From positions 160,001 to 224,000 of the forward strand of contig CAWEPZ010000013.1 in assembly GCA_963811105.1 (NCBI GenBank): DNA of 64,000 nt. Direction: 5' to 3'. The DNA is from Candidatus Bathyarchaeota archaeon (lineage in GTDB: Archaea; Thermoproteota; Bathyarchaeia; Bathyarchaeales; Bathycorpusculaceae). Under the pieces are notes generated by a model that worked only from the letters and a program-made list of their open reading frames with translations, made no database searches and had not been told where the DNA came from. Positions 29,095-64,000 of the stretch are shown piece after piece. The position numbers and the translations under genes were made by a program. Positions within the stretch are counted from its first letter, which is position 1. Every line of letters begins with the position of its first letter.

Positions 29095-31629
29095 ATGGAG
29101 AAGAAATTTGTTTCCGTGGGAATAATGATGCTTCTGTTGTCAAGTATGATGTTTGTGGCATTTGAAATTCATCCAGCAAAAGCTTCAGGGCAAATTGCGG
29201 CGCCAGATGATATCACCGAGACTATAACGCTCAAGGCCGCGACTGCCTGGTATTGGACATCGACGACAAGCATCAAAACGGTTGCCTGCACAGACATAAA
29301 CGGTGATGGACAGACCGAGATAATTACAGGCGGCTCCTTCTTTGACGGCGCACGCAACATAGCGCAACTAGTGGTATGGAATAGCACCAGTCTCGCAGCA
29401 GAGAAAATTACAAGCTGGCACTGGACAGGAAACACTACAATCAACTCCCTAGCTGCAGGAGACGTCAACGGGGATGGCAAAACCGAAATTGTCACCGGCG
29501 GATACTATTTCGATGGAACCCGCCAAGTTGCTCAGCTGGTTGTATGGAATGGCTCCAGCTTGGCTGCTGAGAAAATCCAAACTTGGTATTGGACTGGCAA
29601 CACTGTCATCAATTCGGTGGCTTTGGGCGATGTTGACGGTGATGGTCAAGTGGAAATCGTTACAGGCGGATACTACAATGATGGTGCACGCAATGTGGCA
29701 CAACTTATTGAATGGAACGGGCTTAATCTATCCGTTGATCGCTTATCGGGCTGGTATTGGACAGGTAATACCGTCATTAACTCAGTTGCTGTCGGCGATG
29801 TGGATAATGATGGTCAAGTGGAGATCGTTACAGGCGGATTTTACTTTGATGGAACACGCCTCGTTGCCCAGCTGATTGAGTGGACTGGAACGAATCTGGC
29901 AGTTGATAGGCTAACGTCTTGGTATTGGACAGGCAGCACAGTGATCAATTCAGTCGCGATAGGAGATGTTGATAATGATGGACAGACCGAGATAATCACG
30001 GGCGGCTCCTTCTTTGATGGCACACGCAACAATGCGCAGCTTGTGGTTTGGGCAGGATCCAATTTGTCAGTTGATCGGCTAACAGCTTGGTATTGGACAG
30101 GCAACACAGTCATCAATTCAGTTGCGTTAGGCGATGTTGACGGTGATGGCCAGATGGAGATTATTACCGGCGGGTCCTATTTTGATGGCACACGAAATAA
30201 TGCACAGTATGTCGTTTGGAGTGGCTCAAACTTGTCGGTTGAGAGTGCTAAGAACTGGTTCTGGACAAGTGATACTGTCATCAATTCGGTGGTTGCGGGG
30301 GATGTTAATGGAGACTTTTCAGCCGAGATAATTGCGGGCGGGGCGTACCATGATGGCACGCGTTTGAGTGCTCAGCTTACGGTGTGGGGTGTTGTTCAAA
30401 ATTATGTTCCAGCTTACAAGGTATATGGGTTAGATTTTAGCCCTTACAATAGAGATGGGCAAGATCCCAATAGTGGAACAGTGATTACTGAGGCGCAGAT
30501 AAGAGAATTATTGACAACGGTTAAACCGTATACTAATTGGGTGCGGACTTTTGGGTGTTCAAGCGGTCTTGAGGTGGCTGGTCGAGTAGCTCATGAGTTA
30601 GGTTTGAAGGCGGCTGTTGGAGCTTGGATTGGCAGTGATCTTTCTGCTAATGAAGGAGAAATTTCTAAGCTTATAAGCATCGGTAAAGCGGGTGAAGCGG
30701 ATATGTTAATAGTCGGCAGTGAAGTTCTGCTGCGTGGAGATGTTACAGAAACTCAGCTGATAGAGTACATCAACAGAGTAAAAGTTGCTGTTCCTGGAAT
30801 CCAAGTTGCAACAGCTGACGTTTATGGCGAACTTCTAGCACACCCAGCCGTGGTAGCTGCTGGCGATGTGGTCTTGCCCAATTTTTATCCTTACTGGGAA
30901 GGAGTAAACGTGACCTATGCTGTTGCCCATGTTAATGTTTGGTATAATGAAATAGTGTCAGCGGCTGGAGGGAAACCTGTTTTTGTTTCAGAGTCAGGTT
31001 GGCCAAGCAGTGGCAACCAGATTGGAGATGCTGTTGCGTCGCCCGAGAACGCTGCCTTTTACTTTTTGAATTTCGTCTCTTGGGCAAGGGCAAAGAATGT
31101 GCCTTTCTTATACTTTGAAGCTTTCGATGAACCCTGGAAAGCAGCTTCCGAGGGACCTCAAGGTGCCCATTGGGGCGTTTGGGACAAAGACGAAAACCTC
31201 AAAGCAGGAATGAAAGACGTGTTTGACAACAAAACAATCAGTGATAACTGGAGCGGCGACGGAACAATTGCAGGACCTGGAAACGCCACCATCCAATTTA
31301 TCTACGTACCACCATATGGAAGCTTTGACAACCTTAAAGGACAGGTTCTACACGTAAAACCTGCTAATTACAATGTAGCTGTATTCATCAAAGTTGGGTC
31401 AGGATGGTGGACAAAACCGCTCTTCTCCAATCCACTAACCTTCATAAATCCTGACGGAAGCTGGGTTTGCGACGTTACAACTGGAACAAATGATCAAACC
31501 GCCACTGAATTTGCTGCCTATCTGCTCCCTGTCGGCTATAACCCCCCACTAAGCAGCGGACAAAGCACATTACCTGCAGAGCTTGACCAGAACGCAGCCG
31601 CCAAATGCCAAACCACTCGAACGCCATAG
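29095..31629 (+). CDS. Secreted protein: N-terminal 7-blade propeller, GH17 beta-1,3-glucanase/transglucosylase, C-terminal accessory domain
   Basis: Signal peptide; 7x56-aa repeats (29248-30390); GLDFSPY, WVRTFG, VGSEVLLR, SESGWPS, YFEAFDEPWK. Confidence 0.88.
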   Translation: MEKKFVSVGIMMLLLSSMMFVAFEIHPAKASGQIAAPDDITETITLKAATAWYWTSTTSIKTVACTDINGDGQTEIITGGSFFDGARNIAQLVVWNSTSLAAEKITSWHWTGNTTINSLAAGDVNGDGKTEIVTGGYYFDGTRQVAQLVVWNGSSLAAEKIQTWYWTGNTVINSVALGDVDGDGQVEIVTGGYYNDGARNVAQLIEWNGLNLSVDRLSGWYWTGNTVINSVAVGDVDNDGQVEIVTGGFYFDGTRLVAQLIEWTGTNLAVDRLTSWYWTGSTVINSVAIGDVDNDGQTEIITGGSFFDGTRNNAQLVVWAGSNLSVDRLTAWYWTGNTVINSVALGDVDGDGQMEIITGGSYFDGTRNNAQYVVWSGSNLSVESAKNWFWTSDTVINSVVAGDVNGDFSAEIIAGGAYHDGTRLSAQLTVWGVVQNYVPAYKVYGLDFSPYNRDGQDPNSGTVITEAQIRELLTTVKPYTNWVRTFGCSSGLEVAGRVAHELGLKAAVGAWIGSDLSANEGEISKLISIGKAGEADMLIVGSEVLLRGDVTETQLIEYINRVKVAVPGIQVATADVYGELLAHPAVVAAGDVVLPNFYPYWEGVNVTYAVAHVNVWYNEIVSAAGGKPVFVSESGWPSSGNQIGDAVASPENAAFYFLNFVSWARAKNVPFLYFEAFDEPWKAASEGPQGAHWGVWDKDENLKAGMKDVFDNKTISDNWSGDGTIAGPGNATIQFIYVPPYGSFDNLKGQVLHVKPANYNVAVFIKVGSGWWTKPLFSNPLTFINPDGSWVCDVTTGTNDQTATEFAAYLLPVGYNPPLSSGQSTLPAELDQNAAAKCQTTRTP

Positions 31630-32324: not shown

Positions 32325-32810
32325 TTAGATCATGCCCCAGACGGTTAGTTGGCTATTTAGGCGTGTTCCATCATAGAATGTTCCGCCGGCAACTATTTCA
32401 GTTGAAGAGTCACCATTCACGTCAACCACGCTTAGTGAGTTGATTGTCGTGTTGCCTGTCCAGTACCAGGTTTTGACATTTTCAAAAGCAATGCTTGAGC
32501 CTGACCAGATTTTCAGTTGGGCAACATCGCGTGAGCCGTCGTTGTATTGACCACCGGTTACTAATTCGGGTTGTCCATCACTGTCCACGTCGCCTATCGC
32601 AACAGATTTGATTGCCGTATTGCCTGCCCAGTACCAACCCGCCAGTCTATCCATTGTTAAATTTGAACCGATCCACTCCACGAGTTGTGCATTGTTGCGT
32701 GATCATCAAAGTATGACCCCACAGTAACAACTTCGCTTTGCCCATCACCGTCAACGTCGCCTAACGCAACAGAGTTGATCACCGTGTTACCTGTCCAGTA
32801 CCAAGTGGTG
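32325..32810 (-). pseudogene. Orphan C-terminal three blades of the propeller
   Basis: TTWYWTGNTVINSVALGDVDGDG...NSQLTVWGMI*; no start or signal peptide. Confidence 0.8.
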
Positions 32811-32925
32811 AAGGATTAGTGGACGTATTCGTCAATATGAACTATCGATACATGATACGTGTTTCATTTAACACCAGAAAGCATTTAAGCCTAATCAAAC
32901 GATATAAAAATGAGGTGATTTTTGC

Positions 32926-33537: not shown

Positions 33538-36418
33538 CTATTTTGTATTATGACTATAATTTTGGGTAATGCCCCAAACGGTGAGTTGAGCATTCCAGCG
33601 AGCCCCGTCATTATGTTCGCCGCCCGTAACTATCTCCGTGGAAAAGTCTCCGTTAACATCTCCAACAACAACCGAGTTTATAGTAGTGTCACCCGTCCAG
33701 AACCAGGTCTGGATGTTCCAGACTGATAGGTTTGATCCAGTCCAGACAACCAGCTGTGAATTCTCGAGTGCTCCGTCAAAATAGTATCCGCCAGTAACAA
33801 CCTCCATCTGGCCGTCGGCGTCAACGTCGCCTATATCAATCGAGCTTATGGCGGTGTCGCCTGTCCAGTACCAACCCGTAAGCCTGTCCACAGCCAAACC
33901 AGAGCCTGTCCACGCCACTAGCTGAGCTACATTTCTTGCGCCATCATTGTAATATCCCCCCTGTCGTTATCTCTATTAGGCTGTCGTTGTCAATGTCGCC
34001 AACGGCAACTGAGTTTATGGTTGTGTTGTTGATCCAGTACCAGGTTGTTAGGCGGTCAACTGCCAGATTTTGCCCCTCCCACTCGACCAGTTGGGCTACG
34101 TTGCGTGATCCGTCAAAGTATGATCCGCCTGTAACAACCTCCACTTGGCCATCATCATCGGCGTCGCCTAGTGCAACAGAATGTATGTAGGTGTTGCCGG
34201 TCCAATACCAAGCTGTTAGCCGATCTACCGTCAAGTTGGACCCAGCCCACACAACCAGCTGAGCCACATCCCTAGAGCCGTCAAAGAAGGAGCCGCCCGT
34301 AACAATTTCTGTTTGCCCGTCGCCGTCAACATCCCCAACGACCACAGAATTGATAGACGTATCGCCATGCCAGTACCAACTAGTGAGTCGTTTAACCACC
34401 AAGCTTGAGCCTGCCCAAACAATCAGCTGAGCCACACTTCTTGTGCCGTCAAAGTATGATCCGCCAGTAACAATCTCCACCTGCCCATCACCGTCAACAT
34501 CACCCAACGCAACAGAATTAATAGTGGTGTTTCCTGTCCAGTACCAAGTCGTGAGCCGCTTGACTGCTAAATTGGTGCTGTTCCAAACTGCGAGTTGGGC
34601 CACAGTGCGAGTGCCGTCGTAGTAGTATCCGCCGGTAACTATCTCGTTTTGCTTGTCGTCGTCAACGTTGCCTGACGCGAGAGAGTTTATGGTTGTGTGG
34701 GAAGTCCAGTACCATGCGGTTACCTTGTCTAATTTTAGACTTTCATGTGCGGTAACCCAATCATTCAACTCAAGCAGTTTCGCATCTTTCTCGGCATAGG
34801 GGAATGCGAAATCATCAATTGCCGGAGACAGATTCCAAAGTAGTGCCCCTGCGCCGCCTGCCTCTAATGTTAGGTTGAGATACTCAGCAATGCCTATGCT
34901 TGTGTTGTGAGTCGGATACTCTTCCAGACACCAAGGCTTTCCCGCCGGTATTAATGGAACATAATCAGACAAATTGCCCATCGATGGATACAGATGGAAA
35001 GCAAAATAATCTAGATTCAATTCCTCTACCAGAGACATGAACTTGATGGACACTCCAACCGTGACTAACTTGCCGGGTGCATATGTCCGAATTGCATTGA
35101 TGCAATCATCTATGAATGTGCGCCAAGGTTCAATAGGCACGTAATCATCTGCTCTTGTTTCTGTGTCAGCGTGTTCCCAGTCACCACCAGCATTTTGACT
35201 CAATATCCACTCAGGCTCATTCATTACATCAAACCCTATAAGAGCAGGGTTATCTCCAAACTCCTCCAAGAAAGGTCTCAAAAACTCATTCAAAAAACCT
35301 GTTTTCAAGGTTTCATTTGTGATTATCCCGCTCCTACCTCTAAGCCAAACTCCTTCAACAATCTCAGCCTTTCCAGCTATCAGGAAATCGACCAGCGTAA
35401 ACTCCACCTTAATGCCTTCTTCACATGCTATGTCCAAAAACGTTTTAACATCTTCACGGAATTTATCATTGTATCCAATCACATGACCTTCTTTATCGAA
35501 CATAGTTCTGCCGTCTGCCAACAATTCCACACGAATTACCTTTGCGCCAGCCCGCCGGAAATTGTCAAAATTTGCCCTTACAAAATTTGGATGCCTGGAC
35601 ACACCGTTTCCCCAAACAAACCAATCCGTCACGCCAAAACTCTGCCCATATGGCAATCCTCGAAAGTTGCCGCCTACCATAAACCATTTTTCGTTGTTCA
35701 AATAGAAACCGTCGCTTTCCGCAGAGATTACATCTCCAGTGGCGAATCTAGGTACAGGTGATGATTCCGGAAGCGGCGGTGGCTGGGTAAGTTCAAATGC
35801 AGGACTCACAGTTAGGTTGGTCACTTGTAGCTGACCGCTAAACCTTGCAAGGGAACCATTTCCAATAGCAAATTTGACTCCAATAATGATTATTTTTTCC
35901 GGGTCAAAACTGGAGGTTGCTTCGACGTGAGGCGTTAATGTCGCCTCAAATTTTCCGCTTTGATCTACATTAACCCATGTTCCATATTGTGACGTCCATT
36001 TGGTGTCGTTTTCTTTGGCGAATACTTGTAAACCGTTAAGTTTGCCTTGTTCTCCGACGAAACCAATCGGTACTTCTGCTTCCACCGTAATTGTTCTTTG
36101 GCTCATGTCGATTGGAACTTGATCTTCTAGACCGGGAAAATATCGTAGGTCAAGCCACACTTCACCTTTCTCGAGATTGCTATCATTTCCTATTAGATTA
36201 GCTGTCAAAATTAGTTTTCCCGCTTCCCAATGCACTGCGGTGATTCCTTGACTGTCAAAATAGTCTTGAGGTTGCCAATCCGCATTATTGCTTATTAGCG
36301 ATTGATTTGTATTTGTCTCGTCGGCTCTCACGTATTTAACTTGGTAGACTCCTTGGAAAAATGTTCCAAGTAACGCTAACAGTAATATTAGCGTTGTGAG
36401 TTTGTAGAGCTTTTTCAT
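33538..36418 (-). CDS. Secreted CBM-like domain, GH5-like (clan GH-A) hydrolase, C-terminal 7-blade propeller (frameshift in G run near 33958)
   Basis: Signal peptide; VMNEPEW acid/base, FHLY, LEEYP nucleophile; 7 repeats at about 33571-34714. Confidence 0.82.
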
Positions 36419-36509: not shown

Positions 36510-38821
36510 CTATACTGTTTGTTTCATGCCCCAAACTACTATTTGGGCGCTCCATCGCAATTCGTCATAATATGCTCCGCCAGTCACTATTTCAGCTGAG
36601 AAGTCACTATTAATGTCGCTTAGACATACGGAGTTTATGAGAGTATCGCTGACCCAGTACCACGTTCGCATATACTCAGGAGCTAGGCTGGAACCGCTCC
36701 AAACAACCAACTGAGCTACGTTACGCGTTCCGTCATAAAAGTATCCCCCCGTAACGATCTCTACTCGGCCATAACCGTCCACATCGCCCACAGCCACCGA
36801 ATTGATGACTGTGTTGCCTGTCCAATACCAGTATGTAAACCGATCCACTGTCAAGTTGGACCCAGCCCACACAACCAGCTGAGCCACATCCCTAGAGCCG
36901 TCAAAGAAGGAGCCGCCCGTAACAATTTCTGTTTGCCCGTCGCCGTCAACATCACCGACAGCTACAGAATTGATAGACGTATCGCCATGCCAGTACCAAC
37001 TAGTAAGCCGTTTAACCACCAAGCTTGAGCCAGTCCAAACGACCAGCTGAGCAACACTTCTTGTGCCGTCAAAGTATGATCCGCCAGTAACAATCTCTAC
37101 CTGACCGTCAGCCTCAACGTCGCCTATGGCCACGGAGTTAATTACCGTCTTGCCAGTCCAATACCACGAGAGTACCCTTATTGGCGGCGCTAACGTAGCC
37201 CCATTCCACACCACAAGTTGGGCTACGTTCCTTATGCCGTCAAAATAGTATCCGCCAGTAACAATCTCCACCTGACCATCAGCGTCAACGTCGCCTATGG
37301 CTACAGAGTTTATTACCGTATTACTATTCCAATACCATGTCCTTAATCTTTTGACCGCCAAATTCGATCCAGACCAAACAACCAACTGAGCCACATTGCG
37401 CACCCCGTCGTAGTATGTTCCGCCTGTGACGATTTCGGTTTGCCGTCTCCGTCTACGTCACCTAATGCCACAGAGTTTATGGTGGTGTTTCCAACCCAGT
37501 ACCACGTGATCGACCGTTCAGGTATTAAAGAAGAGCTATTCCAAACAACCAGTTGAGCCACATTTCGAGTGCCGTCATAGAAAGCTCCGCCTGTCAAGGT
37601 TTCTTCTTGACCATCACCATCAACGTCACCGACAGCGACACTGTTAATGGTTGTGTTGGAGGTCCAATGCCACGTCGTGACGTTTAAGACTGACAGAGTT
37701 GGATTCCAAGGACTAATTAACGGATAATGGTCTACATTATTCGCGTCAATTACGTAGGGCGTGTCGCCAATTCCATCAAGATTTATATCATTTCCTTTGT
37801 AGTCGCTCCAATAGTTACCTTCTTCGCCTTTATCCCATGAATTGTTGGTACCACTAGATTCTACTTGCTTTGTGTTGTTTTGGAAGTTGTTGCGATATAA
37901 ATGCATATTTAATGTTTGGTAGACAGAGACGCCCTGCAAATTCCTTACTATATTGTTTGCAATTATACTGCTGTTACTAGAGGAGGGATAAAAATAGATG
38001 CCTGCTCCACCGTTGCTTGTCAAATTATTTCCGATTATCTTGTCGTTAGAAGAACGAAGATAAAGGCCTGATCCACTGTTGTTTGTAATGTTGTTTCTAG
38101 CGATAGTGTTATTTTCACCACCTTCAATCCAGATCCCAATGTTGTTGTTTGCTACGAAATTCTCAATGATAGTATCATTCAAGCCTCTCCAATAAAGTTC
38201 AAGGCCATACCCGTTGTTAATAATGCTATTTTCAGAAATCGTTCCATTCCAAAAATCATCAAGAAAGAGACCATAACTATTGTTTGTTACACTGTTACCA
38301 AAAATGCTATTCTGGCTTGTAGAGTCAGAGTTGACACCACAAACATTATTCATGATATTGTTCTTAGAAATTATGTTATTATTAGAATGCCATAAGAGAT
38401 TAACGCCATTTGTGTTGTTCAATATGTTGTTTTCAGTTATCGTGTTGTGACCAGTAATAATATCGGATTGGAGAAGGATGCCATTTAGGAATGTTTTGAT
38501 TGTCATATCCCTGACTGTTACGTTACTTTGTCCAGTAAGATTGATACCTGTTCCTGTTCCATTTCCCTGAAGCGTGTGGTTTCCGCCGTCAACCACGATG
38601 TTGCTTCGCTGAACCACAATCGGTGGATTATTTATGTCAGCTGTGAATGTGTAATAGGCGTTTCCAACATTGGAAATTGGTGCGTCTGGTGGGTCAATTG
38701 AACCGTCGGGTCTGATGTAGATTGTTCCAGCTGCCCTTGCTGGGTAAATTTCAAACACGCCTATTATCGCGTTTGCCGACAGAAGCGTCAGGATGGCCAC
38801 AGCAAGAAGTCTCTTCTCCAT
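36510..38821 (-). CDS. Secreted NosD/CASH right-handed beta-helix plus C-terminal 7-blade propeller (frameshift near 37440)
   Basis: IYIRPDGSIDP, Asn-rich NNxxGI repeats, GNYWSDY...GIGDTPY...DHYPL; 7 repeats. Confidence 0.85.
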
Positions 38822-44007: not shown

Positions 44008-44042
44008 TCGTAAACATGCATAATTGATATTTGGAGTAAGCT

Positions 44043-53445: not shown

Positions 53446-54705
53446 ATGAGGAAGAATTTTCTAAGATCAGTTGTCTTGCTCGCAATTTTGACTTTAGTCT
53501 TAACTATGGCTGTGCAGACGGTCAAAGCACTAACCGTTGAAAACGTAAAAACTTGGTACTGGGGAGATAGCACTCAAGTAAGGTCTGTTGCTGTTGGAGA
53601 TGTGGATGGTGATGGCAAAAATGAGATCGTTACGGGCGGATCTTATAGTGATGATACTCGTAACATTGCTCAGTTGTGCGTTTGGGATGGCGCTACGTTA
53701 GCTCTTAAAAACGTTAAGACGTGGCTGTGGCAAAATTACACATTCATCTATTCTGTTGTTGTCGGAGACGTGGATGCTGACGGCAAAACCGAAATAGTAA
53801 CAGGAGGCTACTACATTGATGCCACTCATGGTGATATTGCTCAGTTGTGCGTTTGGGATGGCGCTACGTTAGCTCTTAAAAACGTTAAAACCTGGTACTG
53901 GACAACCGCCACAGAAATCCATTCTGTTGCTCTCGGAGACATAGATGCTGACGGCAAAACCGAAATAGTAACAGGCGGCTACTACTATAATGGCGCTCGA
54001 GAGGTTGCTCAGCTATGTGTCTGGGACGGTGCATCGCTGGCTCTTGAAAACGTTAAAGCCTGGTACTCGCCAGGTAACACATTCATCTATTCTGTTGTTG
54101 TCGGAGACGTGGATGCTGACGGCAAAACCGAAATAGTAACAGGCGGCTACGCCATCTATAACTCTTCTGTTGCTCAGCTATGTGTCTGGGATGGTGCAAC
54201 GCTGGCACTGGAAAACGTTAGGACATGGTACTGGGGAAACTACGCTCTACTCAATTCTGTTGTTGTCGGAGACGTGGATGCTGACGGCAAAACCGAAATA
54301 GTAACAGGCGGCGATTATTCTGATAGTACTCGTGGCCTTTCTGCTCAGTTGTGTGTTTGGAATGGTGCAACACTGGCACTGGAAAACGTTCAAGCCTGGC
54401 AATGGGAAGGTTTTACACGAATCTATCCTATTGCAATAGGAGATTTGTATGGTGATGGCAAAACTGAAATAGTAACATGCGGCGACTACAATAGTACTGG
54501 TTTAGTTGGTCAGCTATGTGTCTGGGATGGTGCATCGCTGGGTCTGAAAAACGTTCAAACTTGGAAATGGGGAGTCGGCACCGGCATCTGGTCTGTTGTT
54601 GTTGGCGATGTCGATGGTGATGGGAAAAATGAGATCGTTACTGGCGGAACGTATAGTGATGGTACTCATGGCATTGCTCAGTTGTGTGTTTGGAGCGGCT
54701 ATTGA
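53446..54705 (+). CDS. Stand-alone secreted 7-blade propeller, LCVW type, with hypervariable loops
   Basis: Signal peptide; 7 repeats containing GDVDADGKTEIVTGG and AQLCVWDGATLAL. Confidence 0.9.
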   Translation: MRKNFLRSVVLLAILTLVLTMAVQTVKALTVENVKTWYWGDSTQVRSVAVGDVDGDGKNEIVTGGSYSDDTRNIAQLCVWDGATLALKNVKTWLWQNYTFIYSVVVGDVDADGKTEIVTGGYYIDATHGDIAQLCVWDGATLALKNVKTWYWTTATEIHSVALGDIDADGKTEIVTGGYYYNGAREVAQLCVWDGASLALENVKAWYSPGNTFIYSVVVGDVDADGKTEIVTGGYAIYNSSVAQLCVWDGATLALENVRTWYWGNYALLNSVVVGDVDADGKTEIVTGGDYSDSTRGLSAQLCVWNGATLALENVQAWQWEGFTRIYPIAIGDLYGDGKTEIVTCGDYNSTGLVGQLCVWDGASLGLKNVQTWKWGVGTGIWSVVVGDVDGDGKNEIVTGGTYSDGTHGIAQLCVWSGY

Positions 54706-55086: not shown

Positions 55087-57261
55087 TCAGGTCATGCCCC
55101 AAACGGTTAGTTGACTGTTTAGACGGGTTCCGTCATTGAATGCTCCGCCTGTGATTATCTCACTTGGAAAGTCACCATTTATGTTGTCTACCGTCACTGA
55201 GTTGATTATTGTGTTGCTTGTCCAGTACCACGATTGAATATTCTTAACTGCTAGATTTAAACCTGACCACACTATCAACTGAGCAACATCCCGAGAACCA
55301 TCATTAAACCTTCCCCCAGTCACAATCTCAGCTTGCCCATAACCATCAACATCACCAATTGCCACAGAATTAATAACAGTATTACCCGTCCAATACCACG
55401 ATTGGATATTCTTAACTGCTAGGTTTAAGCCTGACCACACTATCAACTGAGCAACATCCCGAGAACCATCATTAAAGAATCCACCCGTAACAACCTCAAT
55501 CTGATCATTATCGTCAACATCACCAATTGCCACAGAATTAATAACAGTATTACCCGTCCAATACCACGATTGGATATTCTTAACTGCTAGGTTTAAGCCT
55601 GACCACACTATCAACTGAGCAACATCCCGAGAACCATCATTAAACCTTCCCCCAGTCACAATCTCAGCTTGCCCATAACCATCAACATCACCAATTGCCA
55701 CAGAATTAATAACAGTATTACCCGTCCAATACCACGATTGGATCCCCTCCACCGCAAGATTCGAACCAGCCCACACAATAAGCTGAGCAACATCCCGAGA
55801 GCCATCATTAAAGAATCCACCCGTAACAACCTCGAGCCGTCCATCACCGTCAACATCACCCACAGCTACTGAATTAATCACTGTATTGCCTGTCCAGTAC
55901 CAACACGTAAGCCGCTCAACCGACAAGTTGGAACCAGACCAGACGATCAACTGTGCAACATTTCTGGTGCCGTCAAAGAAAGACCCTCCAGTAACAACCT
56001 CCACTTGCCCGTCACCGTCAACGTCGCCAACCGCCACGGAATTTATTGTGGTGTTACCTGTCCAGTACCAACACTGAATTCTCTCAGCAGCTAAGCTTGA
56101 GCTGTTCCAAACTATCAGCTGAGCAACGTTTCGCGTTCCATCGTTGAAGCATCCGCCCGTAACAATCTCTGTTTGGCCATCACCGTCAACATCGCCCGCA
56201 GCCGTCGAATTTACGTAGGTGTTAGATACCCAGTTCCAAGACGAAACACCGTTAAGTTGCAGTTGTTTGGGACCATGGTTGCAGTCAACTACGTAGGTAA
56301 AGTTGGCGACACCGTATATTCTCAACAAGTAGCTATCAGTCTTACTGGCAATAAACTCGTGAATATGAGTCCCACCGCCATTTATTACTTGATTTGGAAC
56401 CACTGTCAAATTAGAAAAATACACAACCGAACCCCAATAGCTGTCTGGACTAATATGAATAGTGAGCAAAACCAAATCGCCTTGACTAACCCCTGAAACC
56501 CAGTAATAATCAACATCATTAGCCTCGTGAAAACCCGTCTGCGTATACATTGGCTGCTCCGAAATTGGATAGTTGCAGTCAACTACGTAGGTAAAGTTGG
56601 CGACACCGTATATTCTCAACAAGTAGCTATCAGTCTTACTGGCAATAAACTCGTGAATATGAGTCCCACCGCCATTTATTACTTGATTTGGAACCACTGT
56701 CAAATTAGAAAAATACACAACCGAACCCCAATAGCTGTCTGGACTAATATGAATAGTGAGCAAAACCAAATCGCCTTGACTAACCCCTGAAACCCAGTAA
56801 TAATCAACATCATTAGCCTCGTGAAAACCCGTCTGCGTATACATTGGCTGCTCCGAAATTGGATAGTTGCAGTCAACTACGTAGGTAAAGTTGGCGACAC
56901 CGTATATTCTCAACAAGTAGCTATCAGTCTTACTGGCAATAAACTCGTGAATATGAGTCCCACCGCCATTTATTACTTGATTTGGAACCACTGTCAAATT
57001 AGAAAAATACACAACCGAACCCCAATAGCTGTCTGGACTAATATGAATAGTGAGCAAAACCAAATCGCCTTGACTAACCCCTGAAACCCAGTAATAATCA
57101 ACATCATTAGCCTCGTGAAAACCCGTCTGCGTATATGTGGCGTTAGGTTCATTATATGAAGCCGCAGCGGAACCTCTTTGAACTGAAGAGGAGAAACCTG
57201 CTGAGCCTATGAATATTGAGGATAGTAAAATTATGAGTAAGAAGAATACAGATTTTTTCAT
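55087..57261 (-). CDS. Secreted protein: three identical PPC-like beta-sandwich modules plus C-terminal 7-blade propeller
   Basis: Signal peptide; DVDYYWV...GD...YLLRIY x3; 7 repeats ending NSQLTVWGMT*. Confidence 0.85.
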   Translation of the reverse strand: MKKSVFFLLIILLSSIFIGSAGFSSSVQRGSAAASYNEPNATYTQTGFHEANDVDYYWVSGVSQGDLVLLTIHISPDSYWGSVVYFSNLTVVPNQVINGGGTHIHEFIASKTDSYLLRIYGVANFTYVVDCNYPISEQPMYTQTGFHEANDVDYYWVSGVSQGDLVLLTIHISPDSYWGSVVYFSNLTVVPNQVINGGGTHIHEFIASKTDSYLLRIYGVANFTYVVDCNYPISEQPMYTQTGFHEANDVDYYWVSGVSQGDLVLLTIHISPDSYWGSVVYFSNLTVVPNQVINGGGTHIHEFIASKTDSYLLRIYGVANFTYVVDCNHGPKQLQLNGVSSWNWVSNTYVNSTAAGDVDGDGQTEIVTGGCFNDGTRNVAQLIVWNSSSLAAERIQCWYWTGNTTINSVAVGDVDGDGQVEVVTGGSFFDGTRNVAQLIVWSGSNLSVERLTCWYWTGNTVINSVAVGDVDGDGRLEVVTGGFFNDGSRDVAQLIVWAGSNLAVEGIQSWYWTGNTVINSVAIGDVDGYGQAEIVTGGRFNDGSRDVAQLIVWSGLNLAVKNIQSWYWTGNTVINSVAIGDVDDNDQIEVVTGGFFNDGSRDVAQLIVWSGLNLAVKNIQSWYWTGNTVINSVAIGDVDGYGQAEIVTGGRFNDGSRDVAQLIVWSGLNLAVKNIQSWYWTSNTIINSVTVDNINGDFPSEIITGGAFNDGTRLNSQLTVWGMT
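56278..57135. repeat. Tandem 294-bp repeat, about 3 copies, apparently identical
   Basis: Unit starts at 56278, 56572 and 56866. Confidence 0.95.
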
Positions 57262-58516: not shown

Positions 58517-58534
58517 AGTTTAGCTCGGTTTTGC

Positions 58535-59186: not shown

Positions 59187-59259
59187 ATAGATCACATTAG
59201 CTATAGCAGCTATAGTAGATATACCCATCTAGTTGTATCTGCGAGAATTTACGCATTTG

Positions 59260-60168: not shown

Positions 60169-60170
60169 TC

Positions 60171-63100
60171 TCAGGTCATGCCCCAAACGGTTAGTTGGCT
60201 GTTTAGACGTGTTCCGTCATAGAATGTTCCGCCAGTAATGATTTCACTTAAGAAGTCACCGTTCGCATCGGTAATAACGACTGAGTCGATTGAAGTGTTG
60301 TCTGTCCAATACCACGTTTTTACGTTCTCAAACCCTAGCGTTGACCCTGACCAAACTACTAGCTGAGCAACATCTCGCGTGCCATCATAGAATTGACCAC
60401 CTGTCACTACTTCAGCTTGCCCATCACTATCAGGATCGCCTATGGCAACGGAATTGATTGCAGTGTCGCTCATCCAATACCAGGTAGTCAGTCTATCAAC
60501 TACTAAGTTGGCTCCGCTCCATTCGACGAGTTGAGCGATATTGCGTGTGCCATCATTGTAGTAGCCGCCGGTAACAACTTCAACCTTAGTATCGCCGTCA
60601 GCGTCACCAATCGCAACTGAATTAATCACCGTGTTACCCATCCAATACCAACACCTTAGTCTATCAACCGTCAAGCTAGCACCATTCCACTCTACAAGTT
60701 GAGCAACATTACGTAAACCATCGTAGTAGAATCCGCCAGTAACAACTTCGGCTTGACCGTCACTGTCTACGTCGCCTACGGCTACAGAATTAATCGCTGT
60801 GTCGCCACTCCAATACCAACTCTTGACATTTTCCAGCGACAAAATAGTGCCGTTCCAAACACACAACTCAGCAACATTCCGAGTACCATCGTTGTATTGT
60901 CCCCCAGAGACAATTTCAACTTGTCCATCGCCATCAACGTCGCCTATCGCTAATGACGTGATAACTGTATCTCCGGTCCAATTCCATGTTTTAACGTTCT
61001 CCAAAGCTAGGTCAGCACCATTCCAAACGACTAACTGAGCCACTTTGCGTGTACCATCGTAATAGTATCCCCCAGTAACAATTTCAACTTGACCATCACC
61101 ATCAACATCACCTAACGCTACTGAGTTAATGGTGGTGTTGCCGGTCCAGTACCAACATTTGACGCACTCTACAGCCAGGTTCGAGCTGTTCCAAACTACT
61201 ATTTGGGCTACGTTGCGTAAGCCATCGTTATAGTATCCCGCTGAGATGATTTCGACATGTCCGTCATTGTTAACATCACCTGAAGCTTCCGAATTGATGA
61301 TTGTGTATGAATTCCAATACCAAGCTTTAACGTTATTGACAACTACGTCTCCAATAATAGTTATCGCAGTATTGCTAACGTATAGGTTATTAAAAGTGGA
61401 AACTTCGCCGAATACCGGTGACAACTGAGCACTCAAAATATAGTTGCCCTTTGCAAGCAAAGAGGTATTCCACGAGAACTCAACTGTGCGGTTGGTTTTA
61501 CCTGGCAAGGTGAAAGTTGATGTGTGAATAACTGTAGAGTTTGCATAAACTAAGAGGGTGAAGTTCTCAGCAAAGTAACCAAAGTTTGATACTGCAACAT
61601 AGGTCTTTTGGATAGACCCCAGCGGTATTATCGCATTTGGAGATACGACATTTTCTAATCCGATGTCAGGCTTGCCTATTACGGACACAATCGCGTTTGT
61701 TCGAGTAGTTTCCGGAACACTTGGAAAATACACGGTTGCATAATTGATAATTTCCGCATAATCAGGCAAATTGTTTTTGGGTTTGATAGAGTAGTTGGCG
61801 TAACCTCCCTGACTTGGCCCTACTTCACCTACAAACCAGGTTATTGTTCGAGATGATGGATTATAAGTACCTGGTGGGGCAATAATAGAGGCATCAGCCG
61901 TATCGTAGACTGATCCGATCTGTAAAGTTGAATCATCTAAGTCTGCATCTAATGTGTCTGTAAAGTACACTCCAAAAGCAATTCCTCCACCTTCGTTCTC
62001 AAACTCTACCTTGTATTCTAGTTTTTGGCTCTCTGAGACATAGCCTTGATCACCGTATTTAACGTTAGGATCACGCGCAACGCTAATTTGGCTCGTAGCA
62101 TTATTGGAGCCAAATTTTCCTGAATCCCAATCTTGAGGCATTGGTTGTGGAAAATCAACGTTGAATACGTCGCCCATATGGCCATGACCCCCAACTAACA
62201 TAACATCGTCGTCATATGCAATGAAGTTGGGAGCGATTGGAATGCCAGGTATGTAGTTAGAATTTATGTCTATTCCTTGGTTGAAATAAGCCGCCCAGAC
62301 GAGCTCAGTACAGTACCAACCAAGTAAGTCCCCATTTAAGCGCGGAAGGGGATTATATCCAATGGGCGGTATTGGTAACACGTAAGGAAGGTTTTTGTGG
62401 AGCTCTGCTTCCGCAAAGGCTACTGCTGCGTTGATTTGTGCTTGTGTAGCATCTTTTACCCTAAGAATCCCAACATCAGTTCGACGGGGGACATCCCACT
62501 TTTCGATAGACTCTTTGATTGGACCGCTATGACCACCCTCATTTAGAACGGAAGAAATCACATAACCGTTACCATCGTAAATTCCCACATGATCCCAGTA
62601 GCCTGGAACCTGCCCACCGTTACTATGTTCTATAAGAATGTCACCCTTTTTGAGTTGCTGTCTCCAATCTGATGTGCTCCCTGAAGATACAGGCGTTAAA
62701 TATGATGGAGCTTTCGCTTCAACCAATGATAACGTCTCGGGACTATTTGACGAAGGGGATAGAAGTAATGGGTAAGCTAGAACTGTAGTCTTCAGAATGG
62801 TTCCACTTGCTAATCCCCATTTTGCACGAACAGTGATAGAAAGAGAATTGATGGATTTTGCATTTACATTAGTAATATCCCAGAAGACGGTATTTACCTC
62901 CCAATCGCAATAACCATTTCCCGAACAGGATACGAATTCTACGTATTCAGGCAGCGCAGCTTTAATTTGAGTATTATCGACGGCTATTAACCCATCATTC
63001 ATGTACTCAACTATGTAATTTACTGTTTGACCTGGACTTACCCGTTCAGGTCCCCAAACATTTACTTTAAGATCTGCTTGCGGCGGCAGACCTATTTTTA

Positions 63101-64000
63101 TTTTTTCTACACCTATTGACAGAACTCTTGATGGAGAGCTATCATATAGTATTCCAGAAACGACTCCAATAAGTGGTTCATTGAAAAAACCTTTCATTTC
63201 AAATACATTTGGTTGTGCAATATTGTCATAAGTCCATCCTTCACCTGAACCAAAATCGGTAACATAAGAAAGAATTGAGAAACCTTGACCATAGTAAGGA
63301 TTAGCTGAACTATTTATGCTGACGTGAGTAGTAGAGACCGTTAGAGGACCATAATAGTACCCTGAAGATTGACCTTGAATTTGAGTTTGAAGCACATAAA
63401 GTCCTGTTGAAGGATAAGCCACGCTTGACCGATAACTCGGTATTCCATCAAGGTTTAGTATTGCATATACTAGGCTTGAGCCAATGTGGCTGATCGTACA
63501 ATTAGCCACAAAGCTGTCGAAAATATTACTACCATTAACAGATTCTGACAAGAACCCCTCAAGGATTCCTTGAAGACCAACTGACAAGGTACCTTTTAAA
63601 CAGGTTTTGTTTTCCCCAGGAACATTGAAAATTATCCCCTGCCAGTCACCCTGATATTGGCTTCCTTCTATTCTTGCATTGTATGTACCTTTTGAAAAGC
63701 CTTCCCCAACGAACGATCCAGAGCTAATCTGGACAATTTCCAAGTTAGTAAAGTTAAGAGACCCGCTCAAATCGCCTGTTACCAAAGTTTGCAGCGTTGC
63801 AGTTTGAACATTAACAGTTTCACCTAGTTCAGCAGTGGTTGATATTACTTCATTCATCGTCGAGAGCGTGCGCGTATAATTAAGAGTAAAGCTCGCCGTT
63901 ATCGAATGATTCGCTTGGATTTTATTGAAACGAACAGTCTGATCACCCAATGAAGTAACAGTAATCGAACTACCATCAACAGTTATACTCTCAATAAAAT
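60171..64000 (-). CDS. Large surface protein (5'-truncated by window): Ig-like/DUF11 domains, permuted papain-like NlpC/P60 (YiiX/YebB-like) domain, DPNxKxG domain, CARDB-like domain, C-terminal 7-blade propeller
   Basis: LKKGDILI...WDHVGIY...YCTELVWAAY (His before Cys); ADLKV...PGQTVNY; RDPNVKYG; 7 repeats at 60171-61323; frame open to window end. Confidence 0.82.
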   Translation of the reverse strand, partial: FIESITVDGSSITVTSLGDQTVRFNKIQANHSITASFTLNYTRTLSTMNEVISTTAELGETVNVQTATLQTLVTGDLSGSLNFTNLEIVQISSGSFVGEGFSKGTYNARIEGSQYQGDWQGIIFNVPGENKTCLKGTLSVGLQGILEGFLSESVNGSNIFDSFVANCTISHIGSSLVYAILNLDGIPSYRSSVAYPSTGLYVLQTQIQGQSSGYYYGPLTVSTTHVSINSSANPYYGQGFSILSYVTDFGSGEGWTYDNIAQPNVFEMKGFFNEPLIGVVSGILYDSSPSRVLSIGVEKIKIGLPPQADLKVNVWGPERVSPGQTVNYIVEYMNDGLIAVDNTQIKAALPEYVEFVSCSGNGYCDWEVNTVFWDITNVNAKSINSLSITVRAKWGLASGTILKTTVLAYPLLLSPSSNSPETLSLVEAKAPSYLTPVSSGSTSDWRQQLKKGDILIEHSNGGQVPGYWDHVGIYDGNGYVISSVLNEGGHSGPIKESIEKWDVPRRTDVGILRVKDATQAQINAAVAFAEAELHKNLPYVLPIPPIGYNPLPRLNGDLLGWYCTELVWAAYFNQGIDINSNYIPGIPIAPNFIAYDDDVMLVGGHGHMGDVFNVDFPQPMPQDWDSGKFGSNNATSQISVARDPNVKYGDQGYVSESQKLEYKVEFENEGGGIAFGVYFTDTLDADLDDSTLQIGSVYDTADASIIAPPGTYNPSSRTITWFVGEVGPSQGGYANYSIKPKNNLPDYAEIINYATVYFPSVPETTRTNAIVSVIGKPDIGLENVVSPNAIIPLGSIQKTYVAVSNFGYFAENFTLLVYANSTVIHTSTFTLPGKTNRTVEFSWNTSLLAKGNYILSAQLSPVFGEVSTFNNLYVSNTAITIIGDVVVNNVKAWYWNSYTIINSEASGDVNNDGHVEIISAGYYNDGLRNVAQIVVWNSSNLAVECVKCWYWTGNTTINSVALGDVDGDGQVEIVTGGYYYDGTRKVAQLVVWNGADLALENVKTWNWTGDTVITSLAIGDVDGDGQVEIVSGGQYNDGTRNVAELCVWNGTILSLENVKSWYWSGDTAINSVAVGDVDSDGQAEVVTGGFYYDGLRNVAQLVEWNGASLTVDRLRCWYWMGNTVINSVAIGDADGDTKVEVVTGGYYNDGTRNIAQLVEWSGANLVVDRLTTWYWMSDTAINSVAIGDPDSDGQAEVVTGGQFYDGTRDVAQLVVWSGSTLGFENVKTWYWTDNTSIDSVVITDANGDFLSEIITGGTFYDGTRLNSQLTVWGMT

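What the first reader, a model, noticed from the sequence alone, without database searches (positions are those of the whole stretch)
29095..64000. Candidate new system: a 7-blade FG-GAP-like propeller used as an interchangeable module on diverse secreted cargo
Seen: seven genes within 35 kb each have exactly 7x~56-aa blades. Cargoes are unrelated (GH17, CBM+GH5, NosD beta-helix, PPC-like x3, Ig/NlpC-P60), the module sits N- or C-terminally, two genes are propeller-only, and none has a C-terminal TM or PGF anchor. They flank a glycosylation cluster. Established: DxDGDG loops bind Ca2+ in integrin FG-GAP/VCBS propellers, and the fungal lectin PVL is a 7-blade integrin-like propeller with ~56-aa repeats. 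Inference: a non-covalent surface-display or docking system (lectin anchor on the cell's own glycan, or a cellulosome-like assembly with stand-alone propellers as scaffold/partner).
Basis: partly seen in the sequence, partly recalled or inferred. Interest (0 to 1): 0.88.

Follow-up and report, generated by a model that had tools for sequence, protein, structure and literature searches.

The report
Propeller module on archaeal secreted enzymes
A soil archaeon attaches the same calcium-binding, seven-bladed propeller domain to many different secreted enzymes, right beside genes that build a surface sugar polymer, which suggests but does not prove a sugar-binding tether that holds the enzymes at the cell surface.

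Summary
Seven genes in 29-64 kb carry a 7 x 56-aa FG-GAP propeller (Pfam PF01839/PF13517 above cut-off). Three of them are split by single-base homopolymer frameshifts, probably assembly errors. Three propeller remnants lie in the window, and two more genes lie just beyond it.

Nearly all genomic copies sit in this one locus. In public data the subfamily is almost confined to Bathyarchaeia. Among 201 strong relatives, 173 have 7 blades; 110 carry the propeller at the extreme C-terminus, 84 are stand-alone and 4 have it N-terminal. Cargo includes GH17, GH5, beta-helix, CE4, GDSL, several peptidase families, vWA and PMT-type glycosyltransferases.

- Paralogues of the cargo in this genome end in a C-terminal membrane helix where these proteins have the propeller.
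- Stand-alone propellers head a GT2/GT4/large-membrane-protein/methyltransferase gene block in related genomes.
- Blades are old duplicates kept alike by selection.

The best reading is a Ca-dependent binding module, probably for the cell's own surface glycan (about 0.4). Binding is untested. The PVL link was not confirmed, and nothing supports cellulosome-like docking.

This is a new variant of a known domain kind, not a new system.

The parts
26354..27616 (-). PIG-V-like GT-C membrane glycosyltransferase, just left of the finding
   Evidence: PF04188 1.7e-8. An orthologue lies next to propeller genes in L005.
29095..31629 (+). Signal peptide, N-terminal 7-blade propeller (aa ~51-447), GH17 domain and a ~135-aa C-terminal domain
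32325..32815 (-). Propeller remnant (about 3 blades, frameshifted, with no cargo or start)
33538..36418 (-). Signal peptide, ~200-aa N-domain, GH5 and a C-terminal 7-blade propeller. It is split 5+2 by a +1 shift in a G6 run at about 33,956-33,961.
36510..38821 (-). Signal peptide, NosD/beta-helix and a C-terminal 7-blade propeller. It is split 2+5 by a 1-base loss at 37,441/37,442.
   Evidence: Short-read contigs of relatives carry the extra base.
39663..40034 (-). Remnant (2.5 blades) of a stand-alone-type propeller, directly downstream of the PMT_2 gene
40219..42372 (-). PMT_2/PMT-type GT-C membrane glycosyltransferase with a ~300-aa extracytoplasmic tail
   Evidence: PF13231 1.1e-12 and PF02366 5.4e-9.
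43090..45149 (+). GT2 (43090-44007) and GT4 (44043-45149)
   Evidence: GT4 orthologues (E down to 3.5e-128) lie beside propeller genes in L005, L008, L010 and L014.
45149..47794 (+). 881-aa polytopic membrane protein with no family match
   Evidence: No Pfam or NCBIfam hit. Orthologues lie beside propeller genes in L008, L010 and L014. It was found in 7 of 201 class genomes.
47787..51394 (.). Methyltransferase (47787-48611 +), GT2 (48798-49655 -) and a PIG-U/PIG-M-like GT-C (50024-51394 -)
51539..51742 (+). Single-blade fragment
52006..53245 (-). Stand-alone 7-blade propeller, variant type. Blades 3-6 carry ANITG/ANVTG/ANYSG in place of the Ca loop. The signal peptide lies in another frame, with the shift near 53,060.
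53446..54705 (+). Stand-alone 7-blade propeller with a signal peptide ('AQLCVW' type)
   Evidence: AF2 model pLDDT 95.5 with 28 strands. Fold matches.
55087..57261 (-). Signal peptide, three 98-aa tandem repeats of unknown family and a C-terminal 7-blade propeller
60171..64000 (-). C-terminal 1,275 aa of a 2,213-aa secreted protein: Flg_new_2 repeats, DUF11, C92-like, DUF7619 and a C-terminal 7-blade propeller

Best explanation
These genes encode a Bathyarchaeia-centred subfamily of Ca2+-loop-bearing, seven-bladed FG-GAP/VCBS beta-propellers. The propeller serves as a portable extracellular binding, or localisation, module.

Proteins are exported by an N-terminal Sec-type signal peptide. The propeller is usually the very last domain. 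It then binds a ligand through its top face, which carries seven near-identical sets of Trp/Tyr-rich D-A and B-C loops. Ca2+ in the A-B loops on the opposite face stabilises each blade.

The most likely ligand is a glycan that the cell itself builds outside the membrane, using the neighbouring GT2/GT4/GT-C/methyltransferase genes. The likely effect is non-covalent retention of hydrolases at, or in, the cell's own glycan layer. Some cargo, such as GH17, GH5 and beta-helix domains, may also remodel that layer.

Stand-alone propellers, which head the glycan gene block in related genomes, would be the older, pathway-associated form from which the cargo-linked copies derive.

SHOWN: fold, repeat number, Ca-loop motif, secretion signals, modularity, lineage range, gene neighbourhood, and the exchange of propeller for membrane anchor among paralogues.

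INFERRED: that it binds anything, that the ligand is a glycan, that the glycan is the cell's own, and that the result is surface retention.
For: 1. FOLD AND MOTIFS.
- Pfam FG-GAP/FG-GAP_3 score above cut-off.
- The AF2 model has pLDDT 95.5 and 7 x 4 strands. The N-terminal strand closes blade 7.
- Best solved matches are the CylK propeller (Z 45, rmsd 2.2, 343 aa aligned) and integrin alpha (Z ~36).
- Over 1,296 blades of 205 proteins, the DxDxDG..E positions are 82-96% conserved (G27 only 68%). W7, W9 and W50 are 95-99% conserved.

2. EVERY BLADE IS UNDER SELECTION. Between blades, synonymous sites are near saturation (median pS 0.72-0.78) while pN is 0.21-0.26, giving dN/dS of 0.12-0.21.

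3. LOCALISATION-MODULE BEHAVIOUR.
- Of 201 strong relatives, 110 have the propeller at the extreme C-terminus, 84 are stand-alone, 4 are N-terminal and 3 are internal.
- Cargo spans GH17, GH5, GH35, CE4, GDSL, BNR, beta-helix, peptidases C25, M6 and S8, vWA, LamG and PKD.
- All eight C13 proteins have signal-peptide-like N-termini and no C-terminal hydrophobic segment.

4. THE PROPELLER SITS WHERE PARALOGUES HAVE A MEMBRANE ANCHOR.
- 11 of 13 other NosD-like ORFs in this genome end in a hydrophobic helix plus a basic tail.
- So does the closest paralogue of the 2,213-aa protein (E 4.6e-116) and the closest paralogue of the protease-like cargo.

5. LINK TO GLYCAN SYNTHESIS.
- 11 of 16 close loci hold homologues of the window's glycosylation genes next to the propeller gene.
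- In L009, L011, L013 and L018 a stand-alone propeller is directly followed on the same strand by GT2 or GT4 genes (gaps about 40-370 nt). A large membrane protein (DUF2079 in L009 and L013) and a methyltransferase lie further down. In L014 the same block follows after one opposite-strand gene. Some downstream genes in L009 overlap stop to start.
- Six relatives are PMT-propeller fusions of about 790 aa by their precomputed Pfam lists; three were rescanned here.

6. LINEAGE RESTRICTION fits a lineage-specific ligand. 13 of 16 close loci are labelled Bathyarchaeia or Bathyarchaeota.

7. LITERATURE. [quoted passage not shown] In PVL and tachylectin-2 the D-A' loop Trp forms the sugar pocket (PMC8023676, whole text read).
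Against: - No binding of any kind was measured or modelled.
- PVL, the lectin precedent, did not appear among sequence matches or among the top 50 fold matches. The nearest solved propeller, CylK, belongs to an enzyme.
- A PMT-propeller fusion is already in the membrane, so there the propeller cannot be an anchor. It fits 'binds glycan or acceptor' but not 'display'.
- Phyletic co-occurrence is weak. The family was found in 5 of 201 class genomes at E<=1e-30 and in 0 of 11 same-genus genomes. The 881-aa membrane protein was found in 7 of 201. Only G000 and G163 have both.
- Five of 16 close loci showed no homologue of the window's glycosylation genes. Several of those loci are short.
- The loci compared are kin, so shared synteny is partly shared ancestry.
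- GT genes are common in archaeal genomes and adjacency could be coincidental in some loci.
- Stand-alone forms have no explained role in a display model.
Confidence: 0.4

Rival explanations
1. The propeller is a lectin or CBM-like module for foreign material. It targets secreted hydrolases to polysaccharide-rich detritus or to the walls of other microbes (fungal beta-glucan or mannan, bacterial walls). This would make the locus a degradative or antagonistic secretome rather than a display system.
For: - Cargo are mostly hydrolases of polymers: GH17, GH5, CE4, GDSL and peptidases.
- The best GH17 match is a fungal beta-1,3-glucanosyltransferase.
- VCBS propellers occur on cyanobacterial chitinases (PMC9218822, passage read).
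- Replacing a membrane anchor by a soluble binding domain could equally mean release from the cell.
- The family is patchy and absent from the 11 same-genus genomes searched, as expected of a niche-specific accessory trait.
Against: - The same module sits on peptidases of four families, on vWA, PKD and LamG, and on a membrane glycosyltransferase. That range is unusual for a substrate-specific CBM.
- GH17 and GH5 cargo carry extra domains of their own that could serve as CBMs (their folds were not tested).
- This reading does not explain why stand-alone propellers head glycan-synthesis gene blocks.
Confidence: 0.3
2. The propeller mediates protein-protein docking or lattice formation. Cargo-type propellers would bind stand-alone propellers, another envelope protein or each other, as in cohesin-dockerin pairing or insertion into an S-layer.
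For: - Two sequence types co-exist: a cargo type with a distinctive last blade, and a stand-alone 'AQLCVW' type.
- Propellers are common protein-interaction scaffolds, and integrin alpha is the closest well-studied fold match.
- A beta-propeller S-layer protein is reported for Dehalococcoides (preprint 10.1101/2024.05.28.596244, passage read).
Against: - No cohesin, dockerin or SLH domain appears in any of these proteins.
- Genomes G204 and G205 have a single match, the stand-alone copy. G201 and G203 have only that copy plus a weak match or a second fragment of the same ORF. None shows a cargo-type partner.
- This reading offers no explanation for the glycosyltransferase neighbourhood.
Confidence: 0.1
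3. The propeller proteins are substrates or extracytoplasmic components of the adjacent glycosylation pathway. They would be dedicated glycoproteins, or an acceptor- or polymer-handling subunit. On this reading the cargo fusions say nothing about anchoring.
For: - The stand-alone propeller is the first gene of the GT gene block in several genomes.
- PMT-propeller fusions exist.
- g52006 carries N-x-S/T sequons at the Ca-loop position of four blades.
Against: - N-glycosylation sequons are not enriched. Stand-alone type: median 1 against 3.65 expected (z -1.2, 58 sequences). Cargo type: 6 against 5.0 (9 sequences).
- The genome's STT3/AglB gene lies elsewhere, on contig C2.
- This reading does not explain the wide cargo range or the exchange with membrane anchors.
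- O-glycosylation could not be assessed.
Confidence: 0.12
4. The propeller is itself catalytic, as in PL11 rhamnogalacturonan lyases or the CylK alkylating enzyme.
For: - The closest solved structure is the CylK propeller.
- There are short matches to RGL11_C and to a PL11 chain (E 0.5).
Against: - The RGL11 matches cover only about 27 residues of the shared Ca-loop motif.
- In CylK the active site needs a second domain that is absent here.
- Seven near-identical blades under equal constraint fit multivalent binding better than one active site.
Confidence: 0.03

Closest known systems
FG-GAP / VCBS beta-propellers (Pfam PF01839, PF13517; VCBS supercluster of Pereira & Lupas 2021, PMC8023676, whole text read)
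   Same: Seven four-stranded blades, a DxDxDG Ca loop between strands A and B, a conserved Trp after strand C and in the D-A' loop, a signal peptide, and fusion to catalytic and binding domains.
   Different: - A distinct, highly regular 56-aa blade (LExVxTWYWTxxTxINSVAxGDVDGDGxxEIVTGGxYxDGxRxVAQLxVWxGxTLA).
- Almost confined to Bathyarchaeia-labelled records.
- Almost always exactly 7 blades and at the extreme C-terminus.
- No paper found by my searches describes this subfamily.
- The supplementary cluster maps of PMC8023676 were not seen and may include it.
Integrin alpha-subunit head propeller (e.g. PDB 7la4, 4um8)
   Same: Fold match with Z 35-36.5 and about 366 aligned residues. There is weak sequence similarity (E 3e-4). 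Ca loops lie on one face and ligand loops on the other (established for integrins).
   Different: All or most blades keep the Ca motif here, whereas integrins keep it in 3-4 (recalled). There is no beta-subunit partner, thigh or calf domains, or TM helix.
PVL, the Psathyrella velutina lectin (7-blade integrin-like lectin; described in PMC8023676)
   Same: Seven blades of about 56 aa, DxDxDG loops, and a Trp in the D-A' loop that forms the sugar pocket in PVL (PMC8023676).
   Different: PVL was not retrieved by the sequence profile and was not in the top 50 of either fold search. Sugar-pocket residues could not be compared, so the resemblance is a lead and not a test.
CylK Friedel-Crafts alkylating enzyme, C-terminal propeller (PDB 7ron, 7fh6)
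   Same: Closest solved structure: Z 45, rmsd 2.2 A over 343 residues; Foldseek E 1.8e-13.
   Different: Sequence identity is 12%. CylK is a cytoplasmic biosynthetic enzyme whose active site uses a second domain, so it gives no functional analogy for a module shared by unrelated secreted proteins.
Non-covalent wall anchors: SLH domains on pyruvylated wall polymer, GW/LysM/CWB modules, and the pseudomurein-binding repeat of methanogens (recalled)
   Same: What it may work like: a shared terminal module on many unrelated secreted enzymes that binds a polymer the cell makes, encoded near that polymer's synthesis genes.
   Different: The fold is unrelated, none of these domains is present, and binding is unproven here.
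Dockerin-cohesin (cellulosome)
   Same: A common C-terminal module on diverse hydrolases, with Ca2+-binding loops.
   Different: There are no dockerin or cohesin domains. No scaffold protein was identified. The propeller is about 390 aa against about 70 aa for a dockerin.

Membership tests
FG-GAP / VCBS (integrin-alpha-type) beta-propeller | Pfam PF01839 or PF13517 above the gathering score | tested here: met
   six of eight ORF pieces score above cut-off (e.g. g53446 at 110.6 and 98.9 bits against 22.1 and 26.9). The NosD piece, with only 2 blades, is below cut-off.
FG-GAP / VCBS (integrin-alpha-type) beta-propeller | Seven four-stranded blades forming a closed propeller | tested here: met
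   AF2 model with pLDDT 95.5 and 28 strands; the N-terminal strand completes the last blade. Fold matches to integrin alpha at Z 35-36.5.
FG-GAP / VCBS (integrin-alpha-type) beta-propeller | DxDxDG Ca2+-binding loop between strands A and B | tested here: met
   Conservation is D22 82%, D24 85%, D26 93%, G27 68% and E30 96% over 1,296 blades. Metal binding itself is not testable here.
PVL-type propeller lectin | Detectable sequence or closest-fold relation to PVL | tested here: inconclusive
   No PVL chain at E<=1 with the family profile or at E<=0.01 with one sequence. PVL is not among the 50 rows shown.
PVL-type propeller lectin | Conserved inter-blade sugar pocket and measured sugar binding | not testable with these tools
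   No PVL sequence or model coordinates were at hand. A Trp-rich D-A' loop is present, but this is only a resemblance.
Cohesin-dockerin docking system | Dockerin on the enzymes and cohesin on a scaffold | tested here: not met
   Pfam scans of all members list neither.
Known non-covalent wall anchors (SLH, LysM, CWB, PMBR) | Presence of one of these domains | tested here: not met
   None appears in the Pfam scans.
C-terminal membrane or sortase-type anchors (TM helix, PGF-CTERM) | C-terminal hydrophobic helix | tested here: not met
   Maximum Kyte-Doolittle 19-residue mean in the last 60 residues is <=0.73 for all full-length members, against about 2-3.3 in anchored paralogues. An exosortase-family gene does exist elsewhere in the genome.
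CAZy carbohydrate-binding module | Match to a defined CBM family | not testable with these tools
   No CAZy or dbCAN library was available. Pfam lists no CBM on the propeller.

The most novel reading that the evidence does not exclude
Bathyarchaeia, an abundant lineage known so far mainly from metagenome-assembled genomes (recalled) and with an unknown envelope, may use a lectin-type surface-display system. A Ca2+-dependent seven-site propeller would dock secreted proteases and glycosidases onto a surface glycan built outside the membrane by a dedicated GT2/GT4/GT-C/methyltransferase gene block. The stand-alone propeller encoded at the head of that block would be the ancestral glycan-handling component. 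If so, this would be a non-covalent, glycan-based protein anchoring mechanism in archaea, for which my searches found no description. The module would also serve as a sequence tag for reading out the surface-bound degradative secretome of the lineage from metagenomes.
Probability: 0.3. Interest if true: 0.75.

Novelty: new variant of a known kind. Interest (0 to 1): 0.5.

Why it matters
Bathyarchaeia are widespread in soils and sediments and are thought to live partly on extracellular breakdown of polymers. Their cell envelope, and how they keep enzymes near the cell, are unknown.

A shared, easily recognised C-terminal module would have three uses:
- It marks a set of secreted hydrolases that probably act together.
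- It points to a specific glycan-synthesis gene block as a candidate envelope pathway.
- It gives an expressible 390-residue domain whose ligand can be found directly, by glycan arrays or by staining of enrichment cultures.

If the ligand turns out to be foreign polymers instead, the family would be a new propeller-type binding module for enzyme targeting. Either way the claim is testable with one recombinant protein.

Tried and rejected
- COMPLEX PREDICTION. I ran cargo-type propeller (alignment A3) against stand-alone propeller (A2, residues 29-419). The verdict was 'no answer', score 0.00, and the controls were not run. It is neither support nor evidence against.
- RNA EVIDENCE. No RNA holder was listed for 33.5-38.9 kb. 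All runs held small shares (<=0.11).
- FRAMESHIFTS. Laid contigs bridged only the 37,441 frameshift.
- N-GLYCOSYLATION TARGET IDEA. Sequons are not enriched.
- PVL KINSHIP. PVL was not retrieved.
- NCBIfam gave nothing useful.
- THE ESM ATLAS gave only generic FG-GAP clusters with recognition below the mark.
- PFAM PF26736 appears in the precomputed lists. It is not in the local library, so its definition is unknown to me.
- ALIGNMENT A2 was too diverse for the search for related loci. I used A1 instead.
- MEMBRANE PROTEINS. The 881-aa membrane protein shows no BLASTP similarity to the DUF2079 or 732-aa proteins that occupy the same slot in L013 and L011. The 'conserved' slot is therefore a class of protein and not one family.
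- PHYLETIC CO-OCCURRENCE of the propeller and the 881-aa protein across 201 class genomes is too sparse to test. Two genomes have both, one of them G000.
- RECENT BLADE AMPLIFICATION as the cause of blade similarity is rejected, except for g55087 blades 4 and 6 (pS 0.04).
- MAKAROVA ET AL. 2019 (archaeal toxins with VCBS propellers, cited in PMC8023676) could not be opened.

Full report
WHAT IS THERE

The window is G000:C13:160001-224000 of a 3.49-Mb, 15-contig genome with an archaeal SSU rRNA. Earlier AI notes call it a soil Bathyarchaeia. The public relatives of the genes studied here are labelled Bathyarchaeia or Bathyarchaeota, which agrees.

Between 29 kb and the window end, ORF listing and a motif count show a 56-residue repeat with blade starts exactly 56 residues apart. 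The DNA shows the matching 168-nt spacing. Pfam scores the repeat as FG-GAP (PF01839) and FG-GAP_3 (PF13517), above the curated cut-offs in six of eight ORF pieces.

I built a blade HMM from 21 blades. Against all six-frame ORFs of the genome it hit 18 ORFs. Sixteen are on C13 between 189 and 232 kb, one is on C11 and one is a 42-aa scrap on C1. The family is thus real, and in this genome it is concentrated in one locus of about 45 kb that runs on to the contig end.

CORRECTIONS TO THE OBSERVATION

Three of the seven genes are interrupted in the assembly.
- The GH5 gene ends after 5 blades at a run of six G (about 33,956-33,961). It continues in another frame for two more blades.
- The NosD gene is split 2+5 at 37,441/2.
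- g52006 has its signal peptide and first half-blade in another frame, with the shift near 53,060.

Read through, each has 7 blades and no other defect.

Short-read contigs of 95-97%-similar relatives, from three runs of two studies, carry one extra G behind 37,441. That base restores ...GDVDGDGQTEIVTGG....

Among related loci, five genes on short-read-style contigs (L004-L006) are intact with 7 blades. Genes on several other records are riddled with frameshifts. I therefore take the three shifts as probable assembly errors or very recent lesions. Only the 37,441 site was actually checked.

There are also three propeller remnants: 32325-32815, 39663-40034 and 51539-51742. g60171 is the tail of a 2,213-aa protein. 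A 1,065-aa member with a trypsin-like region and CARDB follows beyond the window.

CARGO

- GH17 is firm: 4wtp, E 1.6e-43.
- GH5 is supported: PF00150 above cut-off and mannanases at 1e-8.
- NosD/beta-helix is firm.
- The three 98-aa repeats of g55087 are 100/100/94% identical at the DNA level. They match nothing in Pfam or the PDB, so 'PPC-like' is unconfirmed.
- The 'NlpC/P60' label rests on a below-cut-off Peptidase_C92 match.

All eight C13 proteins begin with a basic-then-hydrophobic segment typical of Sec signal peptides. None has a C-terminal hydrophobic stretch.

THE DOMAIN

An AlphaFold2 model of the stand-alone protein g53446, built with 58 homologues, has mean pLDDT 95.5. It shows 28 strands in seven four-stranded blades. 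The first strand after the signal peptide completes the last blade.

The best solved matches are the propeller of the enzyme CylK (Z 45, rmsd 2.2 A, 343 residues) and integrin alpha heads (Z 35-36.5). Foldseek agrees.

Sequence searches of the PDB give only weak integrin (3e-4) or CRTAC1 (6.6e-5) hits. That leaves the PVL relation untested rather than refuted.

Over 1,296 blades from 205 proteins the consensus is LExVxTWYWTxxTxINSVAxGDVDGDGxxEIVTGGxYxDGxRxVAQLxVWxGxTLA.
- The Ca-loop positions D22, D24, D26 and E30 are 82-96% conserved (G27 68%).
- Three Trp are 95-99% conserved.
- The variable positions fall in the D-A' and B-C loops.

By the usual propeller topology (established knowledge; also PMC8023676) those loops form the face opposite the Ca loops. 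That is the ligand face in integrins, and the D-A' Trp lines the sugar pocket in PVL and tachylectin-2.

The blades are not recent copies. Synonymous differences between blades are near saturation (median pS 0.72-0.78) while non-synonymous differences stay at 0.21-0.26, giving dN/dS of 0.12-0.21. The one exception is a recent pair in g55087. Each of the seven blades is therefore individually constrained, which fits seven equivalent functional units.

THE FAMILY ELSEWHERE

Word-index searches with g53446 returned 901 relatives of 230-734 aa and 615 of 735-2,095 aa at E<=1e-5. Both searches were capped at 8,000 candidates.

An exhaustive profile search of 1.84 billion cluster representatives gave 283 at E<=1e-30, 2,226 at <=1e-10 and 9,804 at <=1e-3. 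The last figure reaches into FG-GAP/VCBS proteins at large.

Of the 240 proteins listed have strong blades.
- 173 of them have exactly 7 blades. The others look truncated.
- In 110 the propeller is the last domain, ending within a few residues of the C-terminus.
- 84 are stand-alone, 4 have it N-terminal and 3 internal.

Cargo domains seen in the precomputed Pfam lists and in my own scans:
- beta-helix/NosD (the commonest)
- GH17, GH35, CE4 deacetylase, GDSL esterase and BNR
- peptidases C25, M6 and S8, and C39-like
- vWA, LamG, PKD, PQQ and PD40 propellers
- in six proteins of about 790 aa, an N-terminal PMT/PMT_2 membrane glycosyltransferase

In species-representative genomes, 16 loci encode close relatives (37-55% identity). 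Thirteen are labelled Bathyarchaeia or Bathyarchaeota. Two (L008) are in a bin labelled Ignavibacteria and one (L012) is on an 880-kb contig labelled Chloroflexia. The remaining hits are 25-35%-identical FG-GAP/VCBS-type proteins, nearly all bacterial plus one Thermoplasmata record.

Within the class the family is patchy. It was found in 5 of 201 genomes sampled at E<=1e-30, including G000, and in none of 11 genomes of the same genus. Copy number is bimodal.
- G204 and G205 each have one match, a stand-alone copy. G201 and G203 have that copy plus a weak match or a second fragment of the same ORF. G202 has two stand-alone copies and fragments.
- G000 (10 matches), G206 (7), G207 (15) and G208 (15) hold clustered expansions. 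These counts are matches, inflated by frameshift fragments, and not genes.

THREE OBSERVATIONS THAT BEAR ON FUNCTION

First, position. In this genome, 11 of 13 other NosD-like ORFs end in a hydrophobic helix followed by basic residues. So does the closest paralogue of the 2,213-aa protein (E 4.6e-116) and the closest paralogue of the protease-like cargo. The propeller thus occupies the place of a C-terminal membrane anchor on related cargo. This marks it as a localisation module. It does not say where it localises the protein.

Second, neighbourhood. The window's glycosylation genes are GT2 x2, GT4, PMT_2, PIG-U/M-like and PIG-V-like GT-C proteins, a methyltransferase and an 881-aa polytopic protein without family. 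They have homologues next to propeller genes in 11 of the 16 close loci.
- In L009, L011, L013 and L018 a stand-alone propeller is directly followed on the same strand by GT2 or GT4 genes. The gaps are about 40-370 nt.
- Further down lie a large membrane protein (DUF2079 in L009 and L013) and a methyltransferase. In L014 the same block follows after one opposite-strand gene. Some downstream genes in L009 overlap stop to start.
- The big membrane proteins in this slot are not mutually similar by BLASTP.
- The genome's STT3/AglB gene is elsewhere, so this is not the N-glycosylation locus.

Third, the PMT-propeller fusions put the propeller on the outer side of a GT-C enzyme.

Together these tie the propeller to an extracytoplasmic glycan pathway. 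The loci are kin, five loci showed no such neighbours, and phyletic co-occurrence across 201 genomes is too sparse to test. The link is therefore good but not proven.

EXPLANATION AND RIVALS

The reading I rank first (0.4) is a Ca2+-stabilised, multivalent binding module whose ligand is a glycan made by the cell. It would hold secreted enzymes in or on the cell's own glycan layer. Cargo such as GH17, GH5 and beta-helix may also remodel that layer. An earlier AI note on a Thermoplasmatota island with GT2/GT4/GT-C genes, GH-like enzymes and FG-GAP propellers proposes the same kind of make-bind-trim logic (not compared here).

The main rival (0.3) is a lectin or CBM-like module for foreign polymers or competitors' walls. 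It fits the hydrolase cargo and the patchy, accessory distribution. It does not fit the glycan-synthesis neighbourhood or the breadth of cargo.

The lesser rivals are these.
- Protein-protein docking or lattice insertion (0.1).
- Propeller proteins as substrates or components of the glycosylation pathway (0.12). This is weakened by the lack of sequon enrichment.
- A catalytic propeller (0.03).

There are no cohesin or dockerin domains, and four of the genomes checked show only the stand-alone copy and no cargo-type partner.

COMPARISON WITH WHAT IS KNOWN

As a domain this is a member of the FG-GAP/VCBS propellers. All defining features that I could test are met.

Pereira and Lupas describe signal-peptide-bearing prokaryotic VCBS and integrin-like propellers with accompanying catalytic and binding domains (PMC8023676, whole text). 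They also describe highly repetitive FG-GAP propellers in archaea and bacteria, and VCBS propellers on cyanobacterial chitinases (PMC9218822, passages).

What I did not find in print is this Bathyarchaeia subfamily, its near-exclusive C-terminal placement, its exchange with membrane anchors, or its association with a GT-C gene block. The supplementary maps of PMC8023676 and Makarova et al. 2019 were not seen and could bear on this.

Functionally it may work like SLH, GW or pseudomurein-binding modules, but it is a member of none of them.

VERDICT

The finding is real, and larger than described. It is a lineage-specific use of a known domain kind and not a new system. The proposed anchoring mechanism is plausible and now rests on three independent lines of comparative evidence, but no binding has been shown. 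Interest 0.5.

Noticed in passing
window 57759-57986 (-), 59767-59991 (-), 58535-59228 (-): Two paralogous ~75-aa HTH-like ORFs (weak HTH_38/GcrA matches) lie inside an 84%-identical 216-nt repeat. They flank a PIN (VapC-like) gene and a small upstream ORF. The tail of the first ORF, and a 220-aa ORF beyond the window (C13 231817-232485), run into stand-alone-type propeller sequence ('AQLCVW')..
   Followed up: partly
window 52006-53112 (-): In g52006, blades 3-6 carry ANITG, ANVTG or ANYSG (N-x-S/T sequons) exactly where other blades have the DxDxDG Ca loop. This looks like a Ca-free, possibly glycosylated variant.
   Followed up: no
window 56275-57156 (-): There are three tandem 294-nt repeats, 100/100/94% identical, encoding 98-aa domains with no Pfam or PDB match. 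They are either a very recent duplication or an assembly collapse or expansion.
   Followed up: partly
L003 2701-6694 (G000 contig C11): This is the only family member outside the locus. It has an N-terminal propeller and an unknown 290-aa C-domain, with no signal peptide as read. It lies next to a 505-aa transposase-like ORF and is followed by a secreted, C-terminally anchored protein.
   Followed up: no
L012 (record labelled Chloroflexia, 880-kb contig) and L008 (bin labelled Ignavibacteria): Propeller genes 52-55% identical to the archaeal ones sit with PMT_2, methyltransferase and GT4 genes on records labelled bacterial. This could be inter-domain transfer of the whole block or mis-binning.
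   Followed up: no
window 37441/37442: Short-read contigs of close relatives, from three runs of two studies, have one more G here. That restores the reading frame of the NosD-propeller gene.
   Followed up: yes
L002 2171-8812 (window 60171 onward): The 2,213-aa protein carries about 14 Flg_new_2 (InlB B-repeat-like) units, several of them identical in protein sequence. A long antisense ORF is produced by the repeat.
   Followed up: no
window 48798-49655 (-) and 50024-51394 (-): The C-terminal ~50 residues of the GT2 and of the PIG-U-like protein look unlike the rest of each protein. They may hide further single-base frameshifts of the kind seen in the propeller genes (not checked).
   Followed up: no
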